A stretch of 64,000 nucleotides of DNA from Chloroflexota bacterium (GTDB lineage Bacteria > Chloroflexota > UBA11872 > VXOZ01): contig OY760183.1 of NCBI GenBank assembly GCA_963663275.1, positions 256,001 through 320,000 of the forward strand, given 5' to 3'. A model generated the notes under the pieces. The model saw nothing but the letters and a program-made list of their open reading frames with translations, made no database searches and was not told the DNA's origin. The position numbers and the translations under genes are program-made. This document shows positions 35,122-41,575 of this stretch, in pieces. How positions within the stretch are numbered: the first letter of the stretch is position 1; each line of letters begins with the position of its first letter.

Positions 35122-37587
35122 CTATTCCTCCGTGTAGCGCCGCTGCACGGCCTCGATTTCCAGGTCGAGTTCGTCCGCCCATTCCTTCACCTTCGAGCGC
35201 AGCCGCACGTTCTGGTACGCGCCCCAGACCGTCATCGCGGGTGGGACCAGCAGGATGGATACGATCAGCGAGTAGAGAATCGTGATCGACGCCGTGATAG
35301 CGAACTGCTGGGACGCCAGCAGCGGCGAGAACACCAACACGCCCAGCCCGAGCGCCGTCGTCAGCGCGGAACCCAAGAGCGCCGACCCGGTGGTGGCGAG
35401 CGTCCGCACCGCCGCCTGCTCCGGATCGCGCCGGCGGGCGTACTCCTCACGATACCGGTGAATCACGTGGATGGTGTAGTCTACCCCGATACCTACCGAG
35501 AGCGCCGTGATGATCGACGTGACGAGCGAGTAGGGAATGCCCAGCAGCGCCATGGTGCCCAACACCGAGATGAGCACGAGCACAATCGGCCCCACCGCGA
35601 TGACCGCCAGCGCCGGCTGGCGCGCCGTCACCCAGAAGAAGACCGCCAGCACGGTCAGCGCCATGGCGATGGTGGTGCTGATCGCCTCCGTCTGCCGCTC
35701 GGTGATCGAGTCCGTGACCGTGATCGAGATGATCGTCTCTGACGCCGCGGTAATAGCGTCGTCATCGCCGAACCAAAGGGCTTCGATGTCCTCCTGGAGG
35801 GTCTTGGTTGCCCCGGGATCGCCCGCATAGGCCGGGAACTGGAACAGGATGGCGTCGATACCGTTCGGATCGTTGACCAGAATGTGGGCCAGAGTGGGGT
35901 CCTTCGCCTGGATTCTATCGAGCAATTCCTGCATGAGCTGCGGATCAAGCTGCACTCCCGCTGAGGCTTCCCGGAAAAGCGCGGCGAGTTCCGGGTCGTA
36001 TTTATCGCCGGGCTGTCCGCTGTCGGTGGTCCAGTCGCGTATGAGCGACTCGTACGTTGCCTGTATCGGCCCCGCCGCCGCGTTCGGCCGGCGCGCCTCG
36101 TCCGCGAAGGCTTCCGTGAGCGCGCGCAGGTTCAGCAGCGTGCTGGTCTCCGCGGCCTCGGCCCGCACGAGTACCGTGACCATCTCCGTTGAGCCGCCGA
36201 TGGCCGCGTCGATGGTGTCCATGTCCGTCAGCAGGCTACCGCCTCTGGGCAGGATATCGCGAATCTTGAATTCCGACGTGAGCCCCGTGGCGGCGAATCC
36301 AAGCCCAATCGTCACCGCGAGCACCACCGCGAGATAGGGCGCGGGCCTGCGGCTAATGCTCCTACCCAATAACCCCGCCAACCCTTCGATGCCGGGCAGG
36401 GCGGCCGAAATGGGGCGCGGCGGTTTCAACGTGCCGCGCGCTTCGCGCCGCCGGTCGATGATTACGCGGCCGGCCGGCACCAACGTGAGCATCACGATGA
36501 GGGTCAGGCCCACCCCCAGCCCCGCAACAACGCCGAAGTCGCCAACTATGCCAATCGGTGAGAACAGATTCACCAACAGGCTCACAATCGTCGTGACGGC
36601 GGCCAGCACCAGCGGGATGGTGACGTTGCGCAGTCCCGCGCGGGCGGCCTCCACCACCGCCTGGCCCTCGTGCCGCTGCTCGCGGTAGTGCGAGACGATC
36701 TGAATGGCGTAGTCCACGGTGAGGCTGATTACGATGATCGGCACCATTGCCGTGAGTTGGTTTGGCGGGCCGGTGATGCCCAGCGCCTGCGGGCCGAGCC
36801 AGCCCTCCACGCCAATAATCCACACCAGCGAAATGACCAGCCCGCCAAGCGTGAGCAGCAGATCCGCAATCGTCCGCATGAAGAGCAGGATCAGCCCGGC
36901 GATCAACAGCAGCGCCAGCCCGATCAGCGGCCCCATGCCCTCCTCCGTGGCTCTCAGGTACTCATCCTCGATCACCACGGGCGAGAGGCTGCTCACCCGC
37001 AGCGGGCCTTCTTCTTCGCTCACGCGTTCATAGATCGTGCGTTCGGCGTTCCCGATCCGCTCGTCGCCCGTATCGCGCAGCCGGATGACGGCGACTGCAA
37101 CCTGCGTGCCGTCCTCATCGGTACCGGTCAGCGCCTCGAGCGCCTGTTCTATCTCCGGCGGCCCTCTGACGGAGTCTATTTGGTCCTGCGTGAGCGACGC
37201 GGCGCTTTCTACCTGGAGCACGGCCTTGATCAACAACACCGGCGCGATGATGGGATCGACCGGCGCCAGGAGCGCTCCCACCGCCGGATCGCTGACGATC
37301 TCATCGATGAGGGCGTCCATCTGCGCCAGGCCCGCGGGCGTGAGCGCATTGCCGCGGAAGAGAAGCGTGACGACGTTGGCATCGCCGGATTCACCAAAAA
37401 GCTCATCGATCTCAACGATCACGGCGGCGACGGCACTTCCTGGGGGAAGGATCGCCTCGGTATCCAACGGCTGCGCGCGCCGCACCGCACCGGCGGACAG
37501 GAATATCGTAATGTTGATGATCACGAAGATCGTGAGCCAGGGGCGGGTCGTGACCAACCGGCTGAGCCTACCGAGTAAATTGTCCAT
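35122..37587 (-). CDS. MMPL/RND-family transporter, copy 2
   Basis: Paralog of 27081-29558 with the same VDYAIQ and GVDYTIH motifs. GAGAGGAG RBS before ATG 37587. Candidate TATAAT at 37758-37763 (minus strand). Confidence 0.9.
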   Translation of the reverse strand: MDNLLGRLSRLVTTRPWLTIFVIINITIFLSAGAVRRAQPLDTEAILPPGSAVAAVIVEIDELFGESGDANVVTLLFRGNALTPAGLAQMDALIDEIVSDPAVGALLAPVDPIIAPVLLIKAVLQVESAASLTQDQIDSVRGPPEIEQALEALTGTDEDGTQVAVAVIRLRDTGDERIGNAERTIYERVSEEEGPLRVSSLSPVVIEDEYLRATEEGMGPLIGLALLLIAGLILLFMRTIADLLLTLGGLVISLVWIIGVEGWLGPQALGITGPPNQLTAMVPIIVISLTVDYAIQIVSHYREQRHEGQAVVEAARAGLRNVTIPLVLAAVTTIVSLLVNLFSPIGIVGDFGVVAGLGVGLTLIVMLTLVPAGRVIIDRRREARGTLKPPRPISAALPGIEGLAGLLGRSISRRPAPYLAVVLAVTIGLGFAATGLTSEFKIRDILPRGGSLLTDMDTIDAAIGGSTEMVTVLVRAEAAETSTLLNLRALTEAFADEARRPNAAAGPIQATYESLIRDWTTDSGQPGDKYDPELAALFREASAGVQLDPQLMQELLDRIQAKDPTLAHILVNDPNGIDAILFQFPAYAGDPGATKTLQEDIEALWFGDDDAITAASETIISITVTDSITERQTEAISTTIAMALTVLAVFFWVTARQPALAVIAVGPIVLVLISVLGTMALLGIPYSLVTSIITALSVGIGVDYTIHVIHRYREEYARRRDPEQAAVRTLATTGSALLGSALTTALGLGVLVFSPLLASQQFAITASITILYSLIVSILLVPPAMTVWGAYQNVRLRSKVKEWADELDLEIEAVQRRYTEE

Positions 37588-38116
37588 TGCTCTCCTCTCG
37601 AACCTGAGAAAGCCCCGATGCGCGACGGGAACCGCCTCGCGCATCCGGCCGCATGAGCGGCCGCTGCCGCGCGGCAGGCGCTATGCCGCGCTGCCTTGAA
37701 GCCTCGCGGCGGTCTGGCCGTAACCTGCCGGTATCCTGCGTTGCGGCGTGTGCGCCCATTATAGCGTACTGTCGCCAGGCAGCCACACTGGGGGTATGGA
37801 GAGCCTCGCAAACCGCTCGCGCTGCGATAGGCTCAGCGCGAACGACGGCTGCTCGCTCCCGTCATGCTACGCGCGGGCAAGGCCGCGTGTGAACGGCGGC
37901 TTTCCCAAAGATGGTACCGCCACCCCCACACGGCTGAGCCTGCCTTATCTTCAGAAGGGCAAGTGCGGCTTGCGGCCTGGGTCCGGTTTACTGCCTGAGA
38001 CGAGGGAGTCCGGCGGACAGCCCGCGCGCGTGGACGCAAATACAGTAGTAGGATACGCAAAGAACGTGTCATCCCACGGTCTCATGGAGCGGGAGCATGA
38101 CGGCCGGGGTGTGGCA

Positions 38117-38125
38117 TGGTATAAT
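38117..38125 (+). promoter_or_regulatory. Extended -10 promoter upstream of the thioredoxin-like gene pair
   Basis: TGGTATAAT, 32 nt before ATG 38158. Confidence 0.6.
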
Positions 38126-38157
38126 CGCGCGTGGAACCTGAGATTGGATCTGGGGTA

Positions 38158-38643
38158 ATGCAATTCGTCAACCAATACTCCTACGTCCTCCTTTCGCTGT
38201 TTGTCGCGTCTGTCAGCGCGGTAGCCGTCTATTTTTGGCTGCCGGATCCGGGCGGCGTTCTGCTCTTGATCCTACTGGGCGTTACTCTCTTTGCCGTGGG
38301 CGTAGCGCTGCGCTATCCGGCGGCGGACACTGTCGACAGTGAGGGGTTGGCGGCACAACTCAAGAGAGGCGTGCCGGTTTTCATCATGGTATACTCCAAC
38401 TTCTGAGCGGGCTGCCTTTCGGCCCGCCCCATCGTCGATGGGATCGAACGCGAATTTGGCGAGACAGCGCACGTCATCCGGCTGAACCGCCACACGCCCG
38501 TTGGCCGCGCCTTCGCCGACCGCGAGGGCCTGAGCCTTGTGCCCGGCGCCATTCTCTACGATGGCAAGGGCGAGCCCAGGCTGCGGTTGAATGGCAAATT
38601 CCCCACGAAGCGGAAGTTCCTTGACGCGCTGGAGGAAGAGTAA
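38158..38643 (+). CDS. Membrane-anchored thioredoxin-fold putative selenoprotein 1 (UxxC; TGA at 38404-38406)
   Basis: Two TM helices, then PVFIMVYSNF-TGA-AGCLSARPIVDGIEREF...LVPGAILYDGKG. The frame stays open for 78 codons after the TGA until TAA 38641. Confidence 0.82.
38428..38442 (+). promoter_or_regulatory. Candidate SECIS hairpin 1
   Basis: cccatc-gtc-gatggg, with the loop G 28 nt after the TGA. Identical in the paralog. Confidence 0.55.
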
Positions 38644-38730
38644 GGCGCGCCCAGCCCGGGTGCGCATTCGCGGCGCGCCTCCGGCGGCGGGATGGTAGCG
38701 TATGCCGTGTACTCTTCGGGGAGACTTGAC

Positions 38731-39219
38731 GTGCTTGGGCTAGTAAACCGCTACTCATTCATCGCACTCGTACTCGGCCTGCTGCTGGCGAGCGCCGCGG
38801 CCGCCTACTACTGGCTGCCGCTGCCCGGCGGCTGGCTGCTCGTGCCGGCGGTCGGGATCAGTCTGGCGTCGTTGCATTTCGTGCTCCGCTACCAGGCGGC
38901 GCAACGCGCGGACGAAGGCGACATGGCGGCCCTCGTGGGCAAAGGGCGGCCGGCGCTGGTACTGGTGTATTCCAACTACTGAACGGTCAGCCTCGCGGCT
39001 TCTCCCATCGTCGATGGGATCGAACGCGACGTGGGCGCGGCGGCGCGCGTCATCCGCATCAACCGGCACACGCCGGACGGACGGCAAGCCGCCCAGACCC
39101 TTGGCGTAGAAGCGGTGCCGGGTTTCGTGGTCTACGACGGCGCCGGTGCGGAGCGGCTGCGGCTGGAGGGCCGCTTGCCGGACCGCACGGCGCTGGTAGC
39201 CGCCCTGCGCCAGGAGTAA
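38731..39219 (+). CDS. Membrane-anchored thioredoxin-fold putative selenoprotein 2 (UxxS; TGA at 38980-38982)
   Basis: Two TM helices, then PALVLVYSNY-TGA-TVSLAASPIVDGIERDV...AVPGFVVYDGAG. The TGA is at the same position as in paralog 1. GGGAG RBS before GTG 38731. Confidence 0.8.
39003..39019 (+). promoter_or_regulatory. Candidate SECIS hairpin 2
   Basis: tcccatc-gtc-gatggga, with the loop G 28 nt after the TGA. Confidence 0.55.
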
Positions 39220-39325
39220 GGCGCGGCCGCGGGCGTGAACTGGCGTCCGCCAGGCCCGCGCCGCTGCCGTTTACCCCATGCGCTATACTGGACGAAAATT
39301 GCCCACCGCCGTAGAGGAGTGCCTC

Positions 39326-40351
39326 GTGAACCAACAGTCCTTGCCGCCGCTGCGCAGTGAAGCGGAACTGATGGCGCAGATGACCGCGCCCACGCCGGCC
39401 GTGTGTGAAGCGGTCCAGGCGCTGGACGGCCCGATCATGGTGCTGGGCGTGGCCGGCAAGATGGGCCCCACACTGGCCGAACTCCTGGTGCGCGCCGGCG
39501 CGCAGCGCGTGATCGGCGTCTCGCGCTTCTCTTCGCCGGAGTCGCGCCGCTACCTGGACGACGCCGGCGTGGAAACCGTGGCCTGCGACCTGCTGGACGA
39601 CGCCAGCGTGGCCGCGCTGCCGGACGCCCCCTACCTCTACCTGCTGGCGGGCTTCAAGTTCGGCTCCAGCGGCGCGCCCTCCCTCAACTGGGCCATGAAC
39701 ACGCTCGTGCCCGCCAAGCTGATGGAACGCTTTCCCGATTCCCGCATGGTCTACGTCTCTTCCGGCAACGTCTACCGCTTCATGCCGGTGGACGGCAGCG
39801 GCGCGGCGGAGGACGCCCCCCTGGGGCCGGTGGGCGAGTACGCCGAATCGCGCCTGGGCGGCGAACGCCTGGTGGAATACTACGCCGAACGGCAGGGCAC
39901 GCCCACGCTCATCGTGCGCCTCTTCTACGCCACGGAACTACGCTACGGCATCATCCTGGACATCGCCGCCAAGGTGAAAGAGCAGACTCCGATCGACCTG
40001 GCCATGGGCTACGCCAACCAGATCTGGCAGGGCGACGCCTGCGACATGCTTGCCCGCTCGTTTCCGCTCTGCGCCAGCCCCGCCGGCGTGATCAACCTGA
40101 CCGGCACGGACACGCTCTCCGTGCGCGCGGTGGCCGAAACCCTGGGCGAACGCCTGGGCGTGGCGCCAATCTTCACCGGCGAGCCGGAAGCCACCGCCCT
40201 GCTCGGCGACGCTTCTCGCTATGTGGAAACCTTCGGGCCGCCCCGCGTAACGTCAGAGCAAATCATCGACTGGGTCGCCTGGTGGGTGAAACACGAAGGC
40301 GCGACGCTGGGCAAACCGACGAAGTACGAGAGCAGGACAGGGAACTTCTAA
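39326..40351 (+). CDS. NAD-dependent epimerase/dehydratase (extended SDR)
   Basis: LGVAGKMG, VSSGNVY, EYAESRLG, RLFYA. GAGGAG RBS before GTG 39326. Confidence 0.82.
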   Translation: MNQQSLPPLRSEAELMAQMTAPTPAVCEAVQALDGPIMVLGVAGKMGPTLAELLVRAGAQRVIGVSRFSSPESRRYLDDAGVETVACDLLDDASVAALPDAPYLYLLAGFKFGSSGAPSLNWAMNTLVPAKLMERFPDSRMVYVSSGNVYRFMPVDGSGAAEDAPLGPVGEYAESRLGGERLVEYYAERQGTPTLIVRLFYATELRYGIILDIAAKVKEQTPIDLAMGYANQIWQGDACDMLARSFPLCASPAGVINLTGTDTLSVRAVAETLGERLGVAPIFTGEPEATALLGDASRYVETFGPPRVTSEQIIDWVAWWVKHEGATLGKPTKYESRTGNF

Positions 40352-40465
40352 CGGTTGTCCTCTTCTCAAGCGGCGCACTGTCTGTGTGCTGCTGGGCGTC
40401 AAAAGGTGTAGGGGCACGACATGTCGTGCCCCTACACCTTTTGACGCCCAGCCGGGCCAAGCCGG

Positions 40466-41575
40466 TCAACTATCCTCCAGGACTGCCCGCAGGCGGTCGG
40501 CGACGATGGCCGCTTCGCCCGGTTGCAGGGTCATGGGGCTGATGAGGATGCCCTCCTCATCGAGCCGCACGTCGATCGAGGGCTCGCCTTCCCGCAGGGC
40601 GCGGGCAACGTCTTCAGCACGTTCCAGTCCCGCCTCCGGGAAGCTGATCTGCGCGTGGGGCACGATGTCCCAACTCGCGCCTTCATCCTGCCGCCGCACG
40701 GCGCCGCTTACCCCGTCTATGCCGTCCGCGGCCGCCGCCACGAGGCGCATCTGCGCTTCCCAGCCGTCCAGTTCCGCCGCCTCGTCCTGCGCCAGGTAGA
40801 GTTCCACCGCCGCCAGCAGCCCCATGATCTCTTCCTTGCCGACCTTCATGCCGCGCCCAATCGCGCTTTGCGGACTGCCGTTCAGCCGCGCCGCCTCCAC
40901 AAGATCCGGTCTGCCCAGCACCAGGCCGGTGGCCTGCGGACCGCGAATGCCTTTGCCGCCGCTGAAGATAACCAGGTCGGCGCCCAGCCCCACGACCTCC
41001 GCTAAGTTGGATCGGGGCGGCAGTTGGGCCGCGGCATCGACGATCACGGGCACGCCGCGTTGATGCGCTCCGGCGATCACCTCGATCAACTGTTGCTTGG
41101 TCTGCTTGCCCAGGAAATGCACCACCGCTGCCGTACGTTCCGTAATCGCTCCGATGAGGTCTGCCGATGTAACGCACGTCTCGGTGCCGGCAGCCACCAG
41201 CACGCCGCCGGCGACCCGAAAGCCTTGGTGAACGTAGGTGTGCTCGTCCACGTAGCTGATGACGAACTCATTCTTGCCGCTGGGCACGTCCGGCAGCGCC
41301 CGGATCAGGTCGGTGTCCGTGCCGGTCAGGCAGGCCGCGGCCGCCACAAGCATGCCGCTGGCCGCGCCGCAAGGAATAAATGCCGCCGGCACGCCGAGCA
41401 TCGCCGCCAGCCGCTCGCCCGCCTTTTCGTGCAGTTCGTCAAGTCCGACAAAGCTGCGGGAAGCGCGTTCCATGGCCGCCACCACCGCGTCCGGCATCAG
41501 GCTGCCGCCCAGGGTCGTCACCGTGCCGCTGGCGTTGATGAACGTGCCGACGTTCAGGTCGTCGTAGGTAATCAC
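40466..41575 (-). CDS. SelA-related PLP-dependent enzyme (DgaE-like ammonia-lyase family)
   Basis: INASGTVTTLGGS, VIVDAAAQ, FSGGKGIRGPQATG, IGRGMKVGKEEI. 369 aa, shorter than true SelA. Confidence 0.8.
   Translation of the reverse strand: MITYDDLNVGTFINASGTVTTLGGSLMPDAVVAAMERASRSFVGLDELHEKAGERLAAMLGVPAAFIPCGAASGMLVAAAACLTGTDTDLIRALPDVPSGKNEFVISYVDEHTYVHQGFRVAGGVLVAAGTETCVTSADLIGAITERTAAVVHFLGKQTKQQLIEVIAGAHQRGVPVIVDAAAQLPPRSNLAEVVGLGADLVIFSGGKGIRGPQATGLVLGRPDLVEAARLNGSPQSAIGRGMKVGKEEIMGLLAAVELYLAQDEAAELDGWEAQMRLVAAAADGIDGVSGAVRRQDEGASWDIVPHAQISFPEAGLERAEDVARALREGEPSIDVRLDEEGILISPMTLQPGEAAIVADRLRAVLEDS

What the first reader, a model, noticed from the sequence alone, without database searches (positions are those of the whole stretch)
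38158..39219. Hidden tandem pair of membrane-anchored thioredoxin-like selenoproteins (UxxC and UxxS)
Seen: two paralogous genes each stop at TGA in the same aligned position (VYSNF*AGC and VYSNY*TVS). Both continue in frame for 78 codons of thioredoxin-fold sequence, including the cis-Pro segment VPG followed by a beta hairpin (ILYDGKG, VVYDGAG). The TGA is where the attacking Cys of CxxC/CxxS belongs. Established: Sec is encoded by UGA and typically occupies that position in thioredoxin-fold proteins. Inference: Sec recoding. Two independent nonsense mutations at the same codon are unlikely. Standard gene callers would split these genes. A two-TM-anchored UxxC + UxxS pair may be an undescribed membrane redox relay.
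Basis: partly seen in the sequence, partly recalled or inferred. Interest (0 to 1): 0.86.

Follow-up and report, generated by a model that had tools for sequence, protein, structure and literature searches.

The report
Tandem membrane-anchored selenocysteine thioredoxin genes
Two neighbouring small genes that seem to stop early at TGA almost certainly encode membrane-anchored thioredoxin-like proteins with selenocysteine at the active site, a well-known kind of protein that gene finders routinely cut in two.

Summary
Gene A (38158-38643) and gene B (38731 or 38692 to 39219) are 47% identical paralogues. Each has one in-frame TGA at the first position of a thioredoxin CxxC motif (U-A-G-C and U-T-V-S) and 78 further codons.

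Selenocysteine decoding is strongly supported:
- The TGA sits in the same column in 27 of 27 full-length relatives (44-64% identical) and in 15 more distant Chloroflexota genes.
- Most homologues carry Cys there.
- A 6-bp hairpin with a GUN loop lies 21 nt after the UGA in Sec forms. It shows A-U/G-C covariation through a synonymous Asp codon position, and 11 of 12 Cys forms lack it.
- The genome has selA, selB, selD and tRNA-Sec, and it uses TGA as an ordinary stop.

A confident AlphaFold model shows two transmembrane helices plus a thioredoxin fold with Sec at the active-site helix cap.

The family is widespread in Chloroflexota in both Sec and Cys forms, and earlier notes of this scan describe such genes in other genomes. 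It is a new member of a known kind.

The distinctive feature is the UxxS paralogue. All 13 such proteins contain no cysteine at all. The pair is not obligatory: 8 of 17 genus genomes have UxxC plus UxxS. A redox relay remains speculation.

The parts
38097..38125 (+). Promoter-like site (ATGACG, 17 nt, TATAAT with TG) about 30 nt upstream of gene A
   Evidence: 10 of 12 matches; 2 sites found in 37600-39400 against 0.3 expected from shuffles. This is a consensus match only. Function is inferred.
38158..38643 (+). Gene A: 161-residue membrane-anchored thioredoxin-like selenoprotein, active site U83-A-G-C86
   Evidence: The AlphaFold model (mean pLDDT 93.2) has helices at residues 8-27 and 31-51 and a thioredoxin fold at residues 61-159.
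38404..38406 (+). TGA read as selenocysteine (codon 83 of gene A)
   Evidence: same column as TGA in 42 genes and as Cys in the Cys-form homologues.
38428..38442 (+). SECIS-like hairpin of gene A: CCCAUC / GUC loop / GAUGGG, starting 21 nt after the UGA
38731..39219 (+). Gene B: paralogue with active site U-T-V-S and no cysteine. Probable start GTG 38731; the ORF opens at ATG 38692.
38980..38982 (+). TGA read as selenocysteine in gene B
39004..39018 (+). SECIS-like hairpin of gene B, with the same sequence and the same spacing from the UGA as in gene A

Best explanation
Both genes are real, intact selenoprotein genes. SelB with Sec-tRNA(Sec) is recruited by a short hairpin 21 nt downstream of each UGA, so the ribosome inserts selenocysteine and goes on for 78 codons. 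Each product is a protein of about 17.5 kDa. It has an N-terminal hairpin of two transmembrane helices and a thioredoxin domain, and the selenol sits at the N-cap of the active-site helix, where thioredoxins carry the attacking cysteine. Protein A (UxxC) should work as a thiol-disulfide oxidoreductase through a selenenylsulfide with Cys86. Protein B (UxxS, no cysteine at all) cannot close an internal bond, so it must be resolved by an outside thiol or partner. By the positive-inside rule applied to distant homologues, the thioredoxin domain probably faces outside the cytoplasmic membrane. Shown here: the recoding signature, the hairpin, the decoding machinery and the fold. Inferred: actual Sec insertion, topology, substrates and electron source.
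For: (1) The TGA is in the same column in 27 of 27 full-length members from 17 genus genomes plus G017, and in 15 further genes from other Chloroflexota families.
(2) Sec/Cys pairing: the top 150 of 7809 HMM hits show CxxC 109, CxxS 4, WxxC 13, SxxC 4, ExxC 1, SxxS 1, and 18 fragments that do not cover the site. Many fragments are 82-residue N-terminal pieces that end exactly before the site.
(3) The part after the TGA is under coding constraint. Pairwise differences at codon positions 1/2/3 are 0.278/0.251/0.459 downstream against 0.373/0.313/0.491 upstream.
(4) Hairpin at positions 25-30/34-39 counted from the U of UGA. Among Sec forms (n=42), 6 of 6 pairs form in 20, 5 in 14, 4 in 7 and 2 in 1. 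Among Cys forms (n=12), 5 pairs form in 1 and 3 or fewer in 11.
(5) Covariation: 83.5% of cells are paired against 75.1% when shuffled and 33-57.5% when slid. The covariation score is 0.219 against 0.090, reached by 0 of 500 shuffles. Pair 28-36 is A-U in 25 rows and G-C in 12, and the 3' side of that pair is the synonymous third base of an Asp codon.
(6) Machinery: selA 558 bits, selB 367 bits, selD 352 bits with its own TGA, tRNA-Sec 67 bits with anticodon tca. selA was found in 18 of 19 other genomes with TGA forms.
(7) TGA is a normal stop here: it ends 11 of 31 long ORFs in the window and 7 of the 27 family genes.
(8) Fold: pLDDT 93.2, U83 just before helix 84-100, invariant P129 before strand 130-134. 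The best PDB matches are thioredoxins, TM-score about 0.8 on the target.
Against: There is no direct evidence that selenium is inserted. No RNA run holds the locus, and neither proteomic data nor 75Se labelling data are available. The hairpin overlaps the conserved peptide P-x-V-D-G, so part of its conservation is protein-level. Rfam finds no SECIS family here. One distant TGA form (G414) forms only 2 of the 6 pairs in the fixed register, and its genome gave no selA match. Pfam and NCBIfam scores of the two window proteins are below the curated cut-offs. The topology call is weak for this genus, because the loop between the helices has lost its positive charges.
Confidence: 0.9

Rival explanations
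1. The TGA codons are real stops. Each locus makes an 82-96 residue two-helix membrane peptide, and the thioredoxin half is either untranslated or made separately.
For: This is how gene callers read it: the database holds 82-residue N-terminal and 55-75 residue C-terminal pieces. TGA is a normal stop in this genome.
Against: The downstream 78 codons stay in frame with coding-type substitution patterns in 27 genes. Cys-form homologues are continuous proteins of about 160 residues. A thioredoxin domain that lacks its first active-site residue and strand 74-79 of the model would not fold as modelled.
Confidence: 0.03
2. The UGA is read through, but by a standard amino acid (Trp, Cys or Arg by near-cognate suppression, or a lineage-wide TGA reassignment), not by selenocysteine.
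For: 13 of the top 150 database homologues show W at this position.
Against: The W forms are found only on contigs of at most 3.6 kb. Their exact N-terminal pieces, ending before the W, are on contigs up to 216 kb and 324 kb, which fits code-4 gene calling of a TGA. TGA ends 11 of 31 long ORFs in the window and 7 of 27 family genes. A TGA-specific hairpin and a full Sec machinery are present.
Confidence: 0.04
3. Both are selenoproteins, and A (UxxC) and B (UxxS) form an obligate two-component membrane redox relay.
For: The genes are tandem and on the same strand, 87 nt apart (taking GTG 38731 as gene B's start). A UxxC plus UxxS pair recurs in 8 of 17 genus genomes. B has no cysteine, so it needs an outside resolving thiol.
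Against: 8 of 17 genus genomes keep a single intact copy: 5 with UxxC only and 3 with UxxS only, some with decayed second copies. G011 has two UxxS genes and no UxxC. Outside the genus the family occurred as single UxxC or CxxC genes in the 30 loci examined. No interaction test was run.
Confidence: 0.12
4. They are decaying pseudogenes that happen to share a nonsense mutation.
For: Decayed extra copies do exist in relatives: G003 has a copy with 2 TGA plus a TAG, G002 has a frameshifted copy, and G007 and G005 have fragments.
Against: The codon is the same in 42 genes down to about 26% protein identity, there are no other stops, and constraint is stronger downstream than upstream.
Confidence: 0.01

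Closest known systems
Sec-containing thioredoxin / 'Trx-like' UxxC selenoproteins of bacteria. These are Trx, PF00085, UxxC in Table 1 of the 2026 review PMC13188914, and 'Trx-like 1' (COG0526) and 'Trx-like 3' (weak cd02950) of the GOS selenoproteome, PMC2398784. I read passages of both papers.
   Same: Thioredoxin fold, Sec in the first position of the CxxC motif, many Cys homologues, and a bacterial SECIS directly after the UGA. Of 57 aligned sequences (55 database homologues, mostly Cys forms, plus the two window proteins), 53 match PF00085 at E <= 0.001.
   Different: This family has an N-terminal hairpin of two transmembrane helices preceded by a nearly invariant N-x-x-S motif. The window proteins score below Pfam and NCBIfam cut-offs. 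UxxS forms without any cysteine occur.
TlpA / ResA / CcmG (DsbE) membrane-anchored extracytoplasmic thioredoxin-like reductases
   Same: A thioredoxin-fold CxxC domain tethered to the membrane, probably facing outward. The Atlas's automatic name for the nearest Cys-form cluster is 'TlpA family protein disulfide reductase'. The genome has two CcdA/DsbD-type electron transporters that could feed such a protein.
   Different: Those families have one N-terminal anchor and match Redoxin/AhpC-TSA profiles. Here only 2 of 57 homologues touch PF08534 or PF00578, and 4 of 57 touch dsbE. No cytochrome-maturation or ccdA gene lies next to the gene in the 13 loci examined.
[quoted passage not shown]
   Same: Weak profile matches: 11 of 57 homologues to each. 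The DsbD C-terminal domain is among the structural matches.
   Different: These are domain-level likenesses only. There is no DsbD membrane core and no rhodanese domain. The TsoB motif is UxxxxU.
Single-Sec or single-Cys thioredoxin-fold proteins (UxxS arsenate reductase and UxxS Prx-like selenoproteins in Table 1 of PMC13188914; monothiol glutaredoxins, recalled)
   Same: Gene B has a UxxS motif with no resolving cysteine.
   Different: The subfamilies differ. None of those listed is a two-helix-anchored thioredoxin, and B and its 12 UxxS relatives lack cysteine entirely.

Membership tests
Bacterial selenoprotein gene (UGA decoded as Sec) | In-frame UGA conserved at one position among diverged orthologues | tested here: met
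   27 of 27 full-length members, plus 15 genes from other Chloroflexota families.
Bacterial selenoprotein gene (UGA decoded as Sec) | Homologues with Cys aligned to the UGA | tested here: met
   CxxC in 109 and CxxS in 4 of the top 150 representatives. 12 Cys-form genes in genomes; one of these, L100, is from the unpublished genome G132.
Bacterial selenoprotein gene (UGA decoded as Sec) | SECIS stem-loop immediately downstream of the UGA, with G/U in the apical loop | tested here: met
   A 6-bp stem with a GUN loop, whose loop starts 27 nt after the UGA. It is present in Sec forms and absent from 11 of 12 Cys forms, and it shows covariation. That the spacing and loop fit the published bacterial model is recalled, not computed. 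No Rfam family matched.
Bacterial selenoprotein gene (UGA decoded as Sec) | selA, selB, selD and tRNA-Sec in the genome | tested here: met
   All four score above the curated cut-offs. ARAGORN calls tRNA-SeC with anticodon tca.
Bacterial selenoprotein gene (UGA decoded as Sec) | Selenium shown in the protein (75Se labelling or mass spectrometry) | not testable with these tools
   No RNA holder was listed, and no proteomic data were available.
Thioredoxin family (PF00085) | Score above Pfam's gathering threshold | tested here: not met
   For P0002, PF00085 scores 14.2 bits against 23.5. PF13098 scores 16.3 and 16.7 bits against 27. Of the 57 aligned sequences, 53 match PF00085 at E <= 0.001.
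Thioredoxin family (PF00085) | Thioredoxin fold with the redox motif at the N-cap of the first long helix and a cis-Pro loop | tested here: met
   AlphaFold pLDDT 93.2; U83 precedes helix 84-100; invariant P129 precedes strand 130-134. The top Foldseek matches are thioredoxins. The cis conformation itself was not examined.
TlpA/ResA/CcmG-type reductases | Redoxin/AhpC-TSA type domain, single anchor, cytochrome-maturation context | tested here: not met
   2 of 57 match PF08534 and 2 of 57 match PF00578. There are two helices, not one. No such neighbours were found in 13 loci.
GOS 'Trx-like 3' marine selenoprotein family | Sequence membership in that published set | not testable with these tools
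   I saw only the table rows of PMC2398784. I did not ask for its supplementary files, so I did not see its sequences.

The most novel reading that the evidence does not exclude
The UxxS paralogue (gene B and its 12 relatives) is a cysteine-free membrane thioredoxin whose single selenol is its only redox-active residue. It would act through intermolecular Se-S or Se-Se bonds. One possibility is a relay partner or regulator of the UxxC paralogue. Another is a selenol-based peroxide or disulfide sensor at the outer face of the membrane of sponge-associated Chloroflexota. The unusually fast divergence of this locus would then reflect adaptation to the host's oxidative environment.
Probability: 0.15. 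Interest if true: 0.6.

Novelty: new member of a known kind. Interest (0 to 1): 0.33.

Why it matters
The practical value is for annotation. In every public gene call that I saw for the TGA forms, the gene was either cut in two (82-residue and 55-75 residue pieces) or read through with Trp on short contigs. Selenoproteome counts for Chloroflexota therefore miss it or mislabel it. Biologically, it shows a membrane-tethered thioredoxin family that has switched between Cys and Sec many times within one phylum. By my count of the rows listed at E <= 5e-30, 28 genomes outside the genus have TGA forms and 13 have Cys forms. The hairpin's demands are visible in the protein sequence: the Gly after V-D is kept in Sec forms. 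The cysteine-free UxxS paralogue is a natural single-selenol thioredoxin fold, which could be a clean model for selenol chemistry. None of this changes how selenoproteins are understood.

Tried and rejected
- **Rfam:** nothing above threshold on 38000-39400. The only SECIS hit (SECIS_2, 16.8 bits against a gathering score of 70) is on the wrong strand.
- **NCBIfam and Pfam:** no curated selenoprotein family matches the two proteins.
- **Metagenome scan for the 'W' homologues:** the pattern spelled W as TGG. It found 20 stretches and only one weak match (L082), whose reading frame is broken by many stops. The codon behind the W was therefore not seen directly.
- **Conserved neighbours as a clue to function:** within the genus the flanking genes are an NAD-epimerase, a SelA-like PLP enzyme and an MMPL transporter. 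In 13 loci of other lineages the neighbours differ (methyltransferase, glycoside hydrolase, cyclophilin and others). No ccdA, dsbD or vkor gene is adjacent.
- **Sequencing runs:** no RNA holder was listed, so I make no statement on expression.
- **Protein Atlas:** A natural Cys homologue, P0015, was accepted and gave only generic thioredoxin or TlpA-like cluster names, mostly from Chloroflexota.
- **Complex prediction:** I did not run it for A with B. The tool takes table-11 proteins only, and I do not claim that the two proteins bind.
- **MFE folding:** folding of single 60-100 nt windows gave unremarkable z-scores (-0.3 to -2.2). The comparative analysis, not single-sequence folding, carries the hairpin claim.

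Full report
**Observation.** The window holds two same-strand paralogous genes. Gene A runs from 38158 to 38643. Gene B ends at 39219. Its ORF opens at ATG 38692, but the family N-terminus aligns with GTG 38731, which follows a GGGGAG motif. Read with TGA as U, A is 161 residues with U83 in VYSNF-U-AGC, and B has VYSNY-U-TVS. Each continues for 78 codons to a TAA. The two are 47% identical over 161 residues, E 2e-49. Contigs from three further public runs, labelled sponge metagenomes or coded organisms, cover both TGA codons at 95-99% likeness. No difference is listed at those positions, although the tool left 9 differences unshown.

**Is the UGA decoded?** I searched the window's own genome and 40 relatives in six frames with stops read through. 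All 16 of 16 same-genus genomes have relatives at 44-64% identity, each with exactly one TGA. One genome of another family in the same class (G017, 32% identity) has one too.

- I extracted every hit covering at least 140 residues: 27 genes. Four shorter, broken rows were left out. The TGA falls in one alignment column in 27 of 27.
- Seven of these 27 genes also end in TGA, and TGA ends 11 of 31 long non-overlapping ORFs in the window. TGA is therefore an ordinary stop in this organism, not a reassigned codon.
- The 78 codons after the TGA are more constrained than those before it. Pairwise differences at codon positions 1/2/3 are 0.278/0.251/0.459 downstream and 0.373/0.313/0.491 upstream.

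**Cys homologues.** A profile of 21 members was searched against 1.84 billion representative proteins. It gave 7809 hits at E <= 0.001 and 294 at E <= 1e-10. I aligned the best 150 to the profile.

| Residues at the site | Count |
|---|---|
| CxxC | 109 |
| WxxC | 13 |
| CxxS | 4 |
| SxxC | 4 |
| ExxC | 1 |
| SxxS | 1 |
| Fragments not covering the first position | 18 |

Many of the fragments are 82-residue N-terminal pieces that end just before the site, or 55-75 residue C-terminal pieces. These are split gene calls of TGA forms.

The cluster look-ups say otherwise. P0039 (183 aa, W84) occurs only on contigs of at most 1.8 kb. P0167, which is exactly its first 83 residues, occurs on 15 contigs of up to 216 kb. 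P0078 and P0189 show the same pattern. This is what code-4 gene calling of a TGA on short contigs would produce. I infer that the W forms are further TGA forms, but I did not see their DNA. A metagenome scan that spelled W as TGG did not recover them.

**Spread in the phylum.** A profile of 57 sequences (55 database homologues plus the two window proteins) was searched in 401 Chloroflexota genomes.

- By my count of the listed rows at E <= 5e-30, 28 genomes outside the genus have full-length or near full-length matches with one TGA, and 13 have matches without a stop (one of these is the unpublished G132).
- In the 30 loci fetched, 20 rows have TGA and 12 have Cys at the same column, for example FQSPY-U-IGC beside FQSPY-C-LAC.
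- selA was found in 18 of 19 other genomes with TGA forms; the miss is G414, a 1.3-Mb genome. It was also found in 11 of 12 genomes with Cys forms, so the trait is common in these lineages.

**SECIS.** Both window genes carry CCCAUC-GUC-GAUGGG starting 21 nt after the UGA (38428-38442 and 39004-39018). I counted pairs in a fixed register, positions 25-30 with 39-34 counted from the U of UGA.

| Pairs formed (of 6) | Sec forms (n=42) | Cys forms (n=12) |
|---|---|---|
| 6 | 20 | 0 |
| 5 | 14 | 1 |
| 4 | 7 | 0 |
| 3 | 0 | 4 |
| 2 | 1 | 3 |
| 1 | 0 | 4 |

On the 42-sequence alignment (38 distinct rows), 83.5% of cells pair. The figure is 75.1% in shuffles (0 of 500 reach the observed value) and 33-57.5% when the partner is slid. 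The covariation score is 0.219 against 0.090, reached by 0 of 500 shuffles.

The telling pair is 28-36: A-U in 25 rows and G-C in 12. Its 5' base is the first base of an Ile or Val codon. Its 3' base is the synonymous third base of the Asp codon, so the constraint acts on the RNA and not only on the protein. The Gly codon that closes the stem is kept in Sec forms and is free in Cys forms.

A caveat is that the hairpin overlaps the conserved peptide P-x-V-D-G, so cells paired in unvarying columns say little. This genome's selD also carries a TGA at the canonical G-U-x-G-K site. By my reading of the printed sequence, a GCGCAG-GUG-CUGCGC hairpin can form a few bases further downstream there. The MFE fold chose a neighbouring pairing. 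Rfam holds no matching family.

**Machinery.** All four components are present in the 3.53-Mb single-contig genome:
- selA, 558 bits
- selB, 367 bits
- selD, 352 bits
- tRNA-Sec, 67 bits, called by ARAGORN as tRNA-SeC with anticodon tca

**What the proteins are.**
- Pfam and NCBIfam give only sub-threshold thioredoxin matches for A and B. Of the 57 aligned sequences (55 homologues, mostly Cys forms, plus A and B), 53 match PF00085 at E <= 0.001. None matches a curated selenoprotein family other than domain-level hits to TsoB/DsbD.
- AlphaFold with the 57-row alignment gives mean pLDDT 93.2. The model has helices 8-27 and 31-51, then a thioredoxin fold (helix 61-68, strand 74-79, helix 84-100, strand 105-110, helix 114-123, strands 130-134 and 140-145, helix 151-159). 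U83 sits at the cap of helix 84-100, and invariant P129 precedes strand 130-134.
- Foldseek's best PDB matches are thioredoxins (TM-score about 0.8 on the target), followed by the DsbD C-terminal domain.
- A short N-terminal motif (N5, S8 in gene A's numbering) is nearly invariant across the family. Its role is unknown.

**Topology (inference).** In 55 distant homologues the loop between the two helices carries 2.6 Lys+Arg on average. The N-terminus carries 0.49. The 15 residues after helix 2 carry 1.18 and are net acidic. By the positive-inside rule, the loop is cytoplasmic and the thioredoxin domain faces outward. In the window's genus the loop has lost these charges (0.19), so the call rests on homology. 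The genome has two CcdA/DsbD-type membrane electron carriers and no VKOR. That fits an outward-facing reductase but does not link the two.

**The pair.** Within the genus the genes fall into a UAGC clade, a UxxS clade (UGGS, UAKS, UASS, UARS) and deeper branches that hold the window's A and B and the two genes of G011.

| State of the locus | Genus genomes (of 17) |
|---|---|
| Two intact copies, UxxC plus UxxS | 8 |
| Two intact copies, UxxS plus UxxS (G011) | 1 |
| One intact copy, UxxC only | 5 |
| One intact copy, UxxS only | 3 |

Some single-copy genomes have decayed remnants of a second copy: G003 has 2 TGA plus a TAG, G002 has a frameshift, and G007 and G005 have fragments. All 13 UxxS proteins contain no cysteine at all, whereas the UxxC proteins keep the resolving Cys. 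The 15 Sec forms examined from other lineages are all UxxC. The pair is therefore common but dispensable, and the relay idea remains untested.

The locus also evolves fast. The flanking epimerase and SelA-like genes are 86-91% identical across the genus, while these genes are 44-64% identical.

**Comparison with what is known.** Thioredoxin-fold UxxC selenoproteins are among the oldest and most abundant predicted bacterial selenoproteins.
- The 2026 review lists Trx (PF00085, UxxC) among experimentally verified families, and several Trx-like families (passages of PMC13188914).
- The GOS survey lists 'Trx-like 1' with 321 sequences and 'Trx-like 3' with 212 sequences (weak cd02950), the latter mainly marine (passages of PMC2398784). 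The Sargasso Sea paper lists similar families (passages of PMC1088965).
- In the passages of these papers, of BSepDB (PMC13326102) and of deep-Sep (PMC12013277) that the find tool showed me, I saw no description of a two-helix-anchored thioredoxin selenoprotein or of a cysteine-free UxxS thioredoxin. 'Transmembrane' occurs 0 times in the four main texts where I searched for it; I did not search for it in BSepDB. I did not see their supplementary tables, which may list such genes.
- This scan's own earlier notes describe membrane-anchored UxxC thioredoxin-like genes in other Chloroflexota genomes and reach the same verdict.

**Verdict.** Both genes are real, mis-split selenoprotein genes, with confidence about 0.9. 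They are a new member of a known kind. The cysteine-free UxxS paralogue and the tandem arrangement are the only unusual points. Function beyond 'membrane-tethered selenol oxidoreductase' is inferred.

Noticed in passing
window 40466-41575 (-): A SelA-like PLP enzyme (PF03841, E 2.5e-9; also Aminotran_5) lies two genes downstream of the selenoprotein pair and is kept there across the genus at 79-88% identity. The genome has four such paralogues besides the true selA. It sits beside an NAD-epimerase, so a sugar-acid role seems more likely than a selenium role.
   Followed up: partly
G000:C1:3051010-3051993 (-), locus L014: The genome's selD is itself a selenoprotein gene, with a TGA at the G-U-x-G-K site and a possible GUG-loop hairpin downstream.
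   Followed up: partly
window 38158-39219 compared with 39278-41575; loci L048-L061: The two thioredoxin-like genes are only 44-64% identical among species of the genus, while the adjacent epimerase and SelA-like genes are 86-91% identical. The locus also shows duplication, loss and decay of copies.
   Followed up: partly
Database proteins P0012, P0029, P0031, P0039, P0042, P0051, P0078 and others: Public protein collections hold full-length 'WxxC' versions of this family only on very short contigs. The same genes on long contigs are cut before the W. This is probably code-4 gene calling of a Sec codon in AT-rich lineages.
   Followed up: partly
G414:C4:25380-25847 (locus L111): A 1.3-Mb Chloroflexota genome (96% complete) has a TGA form of the gene (U-I-L-C) that forms only 2 of the 6 pairs in the fixed register, and it gave no selA match at E <= 1e-40. 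It may be a decaying gene, a gap in the assembly or a different decoding arrangement.
   Followed up: no
window 38646-38682: The spacer between genes A and B holds two copies of the self-complementary octamer GGCGCGCC, 21 nt apart. These could form a stem. Rfam gives only a sub-threshold malK-III match over 38646-38733 (19.2 bits against 50).
   Followed up: no
window 35122-37644 (-): An 840-residue MMPL/RND-type transporter gene (PF03176, E 1.7e-43) is divergently oriented upstream of gene A. It is kept upstream in some relatives: 3 of the 17 loci searched.
   Followed up: no
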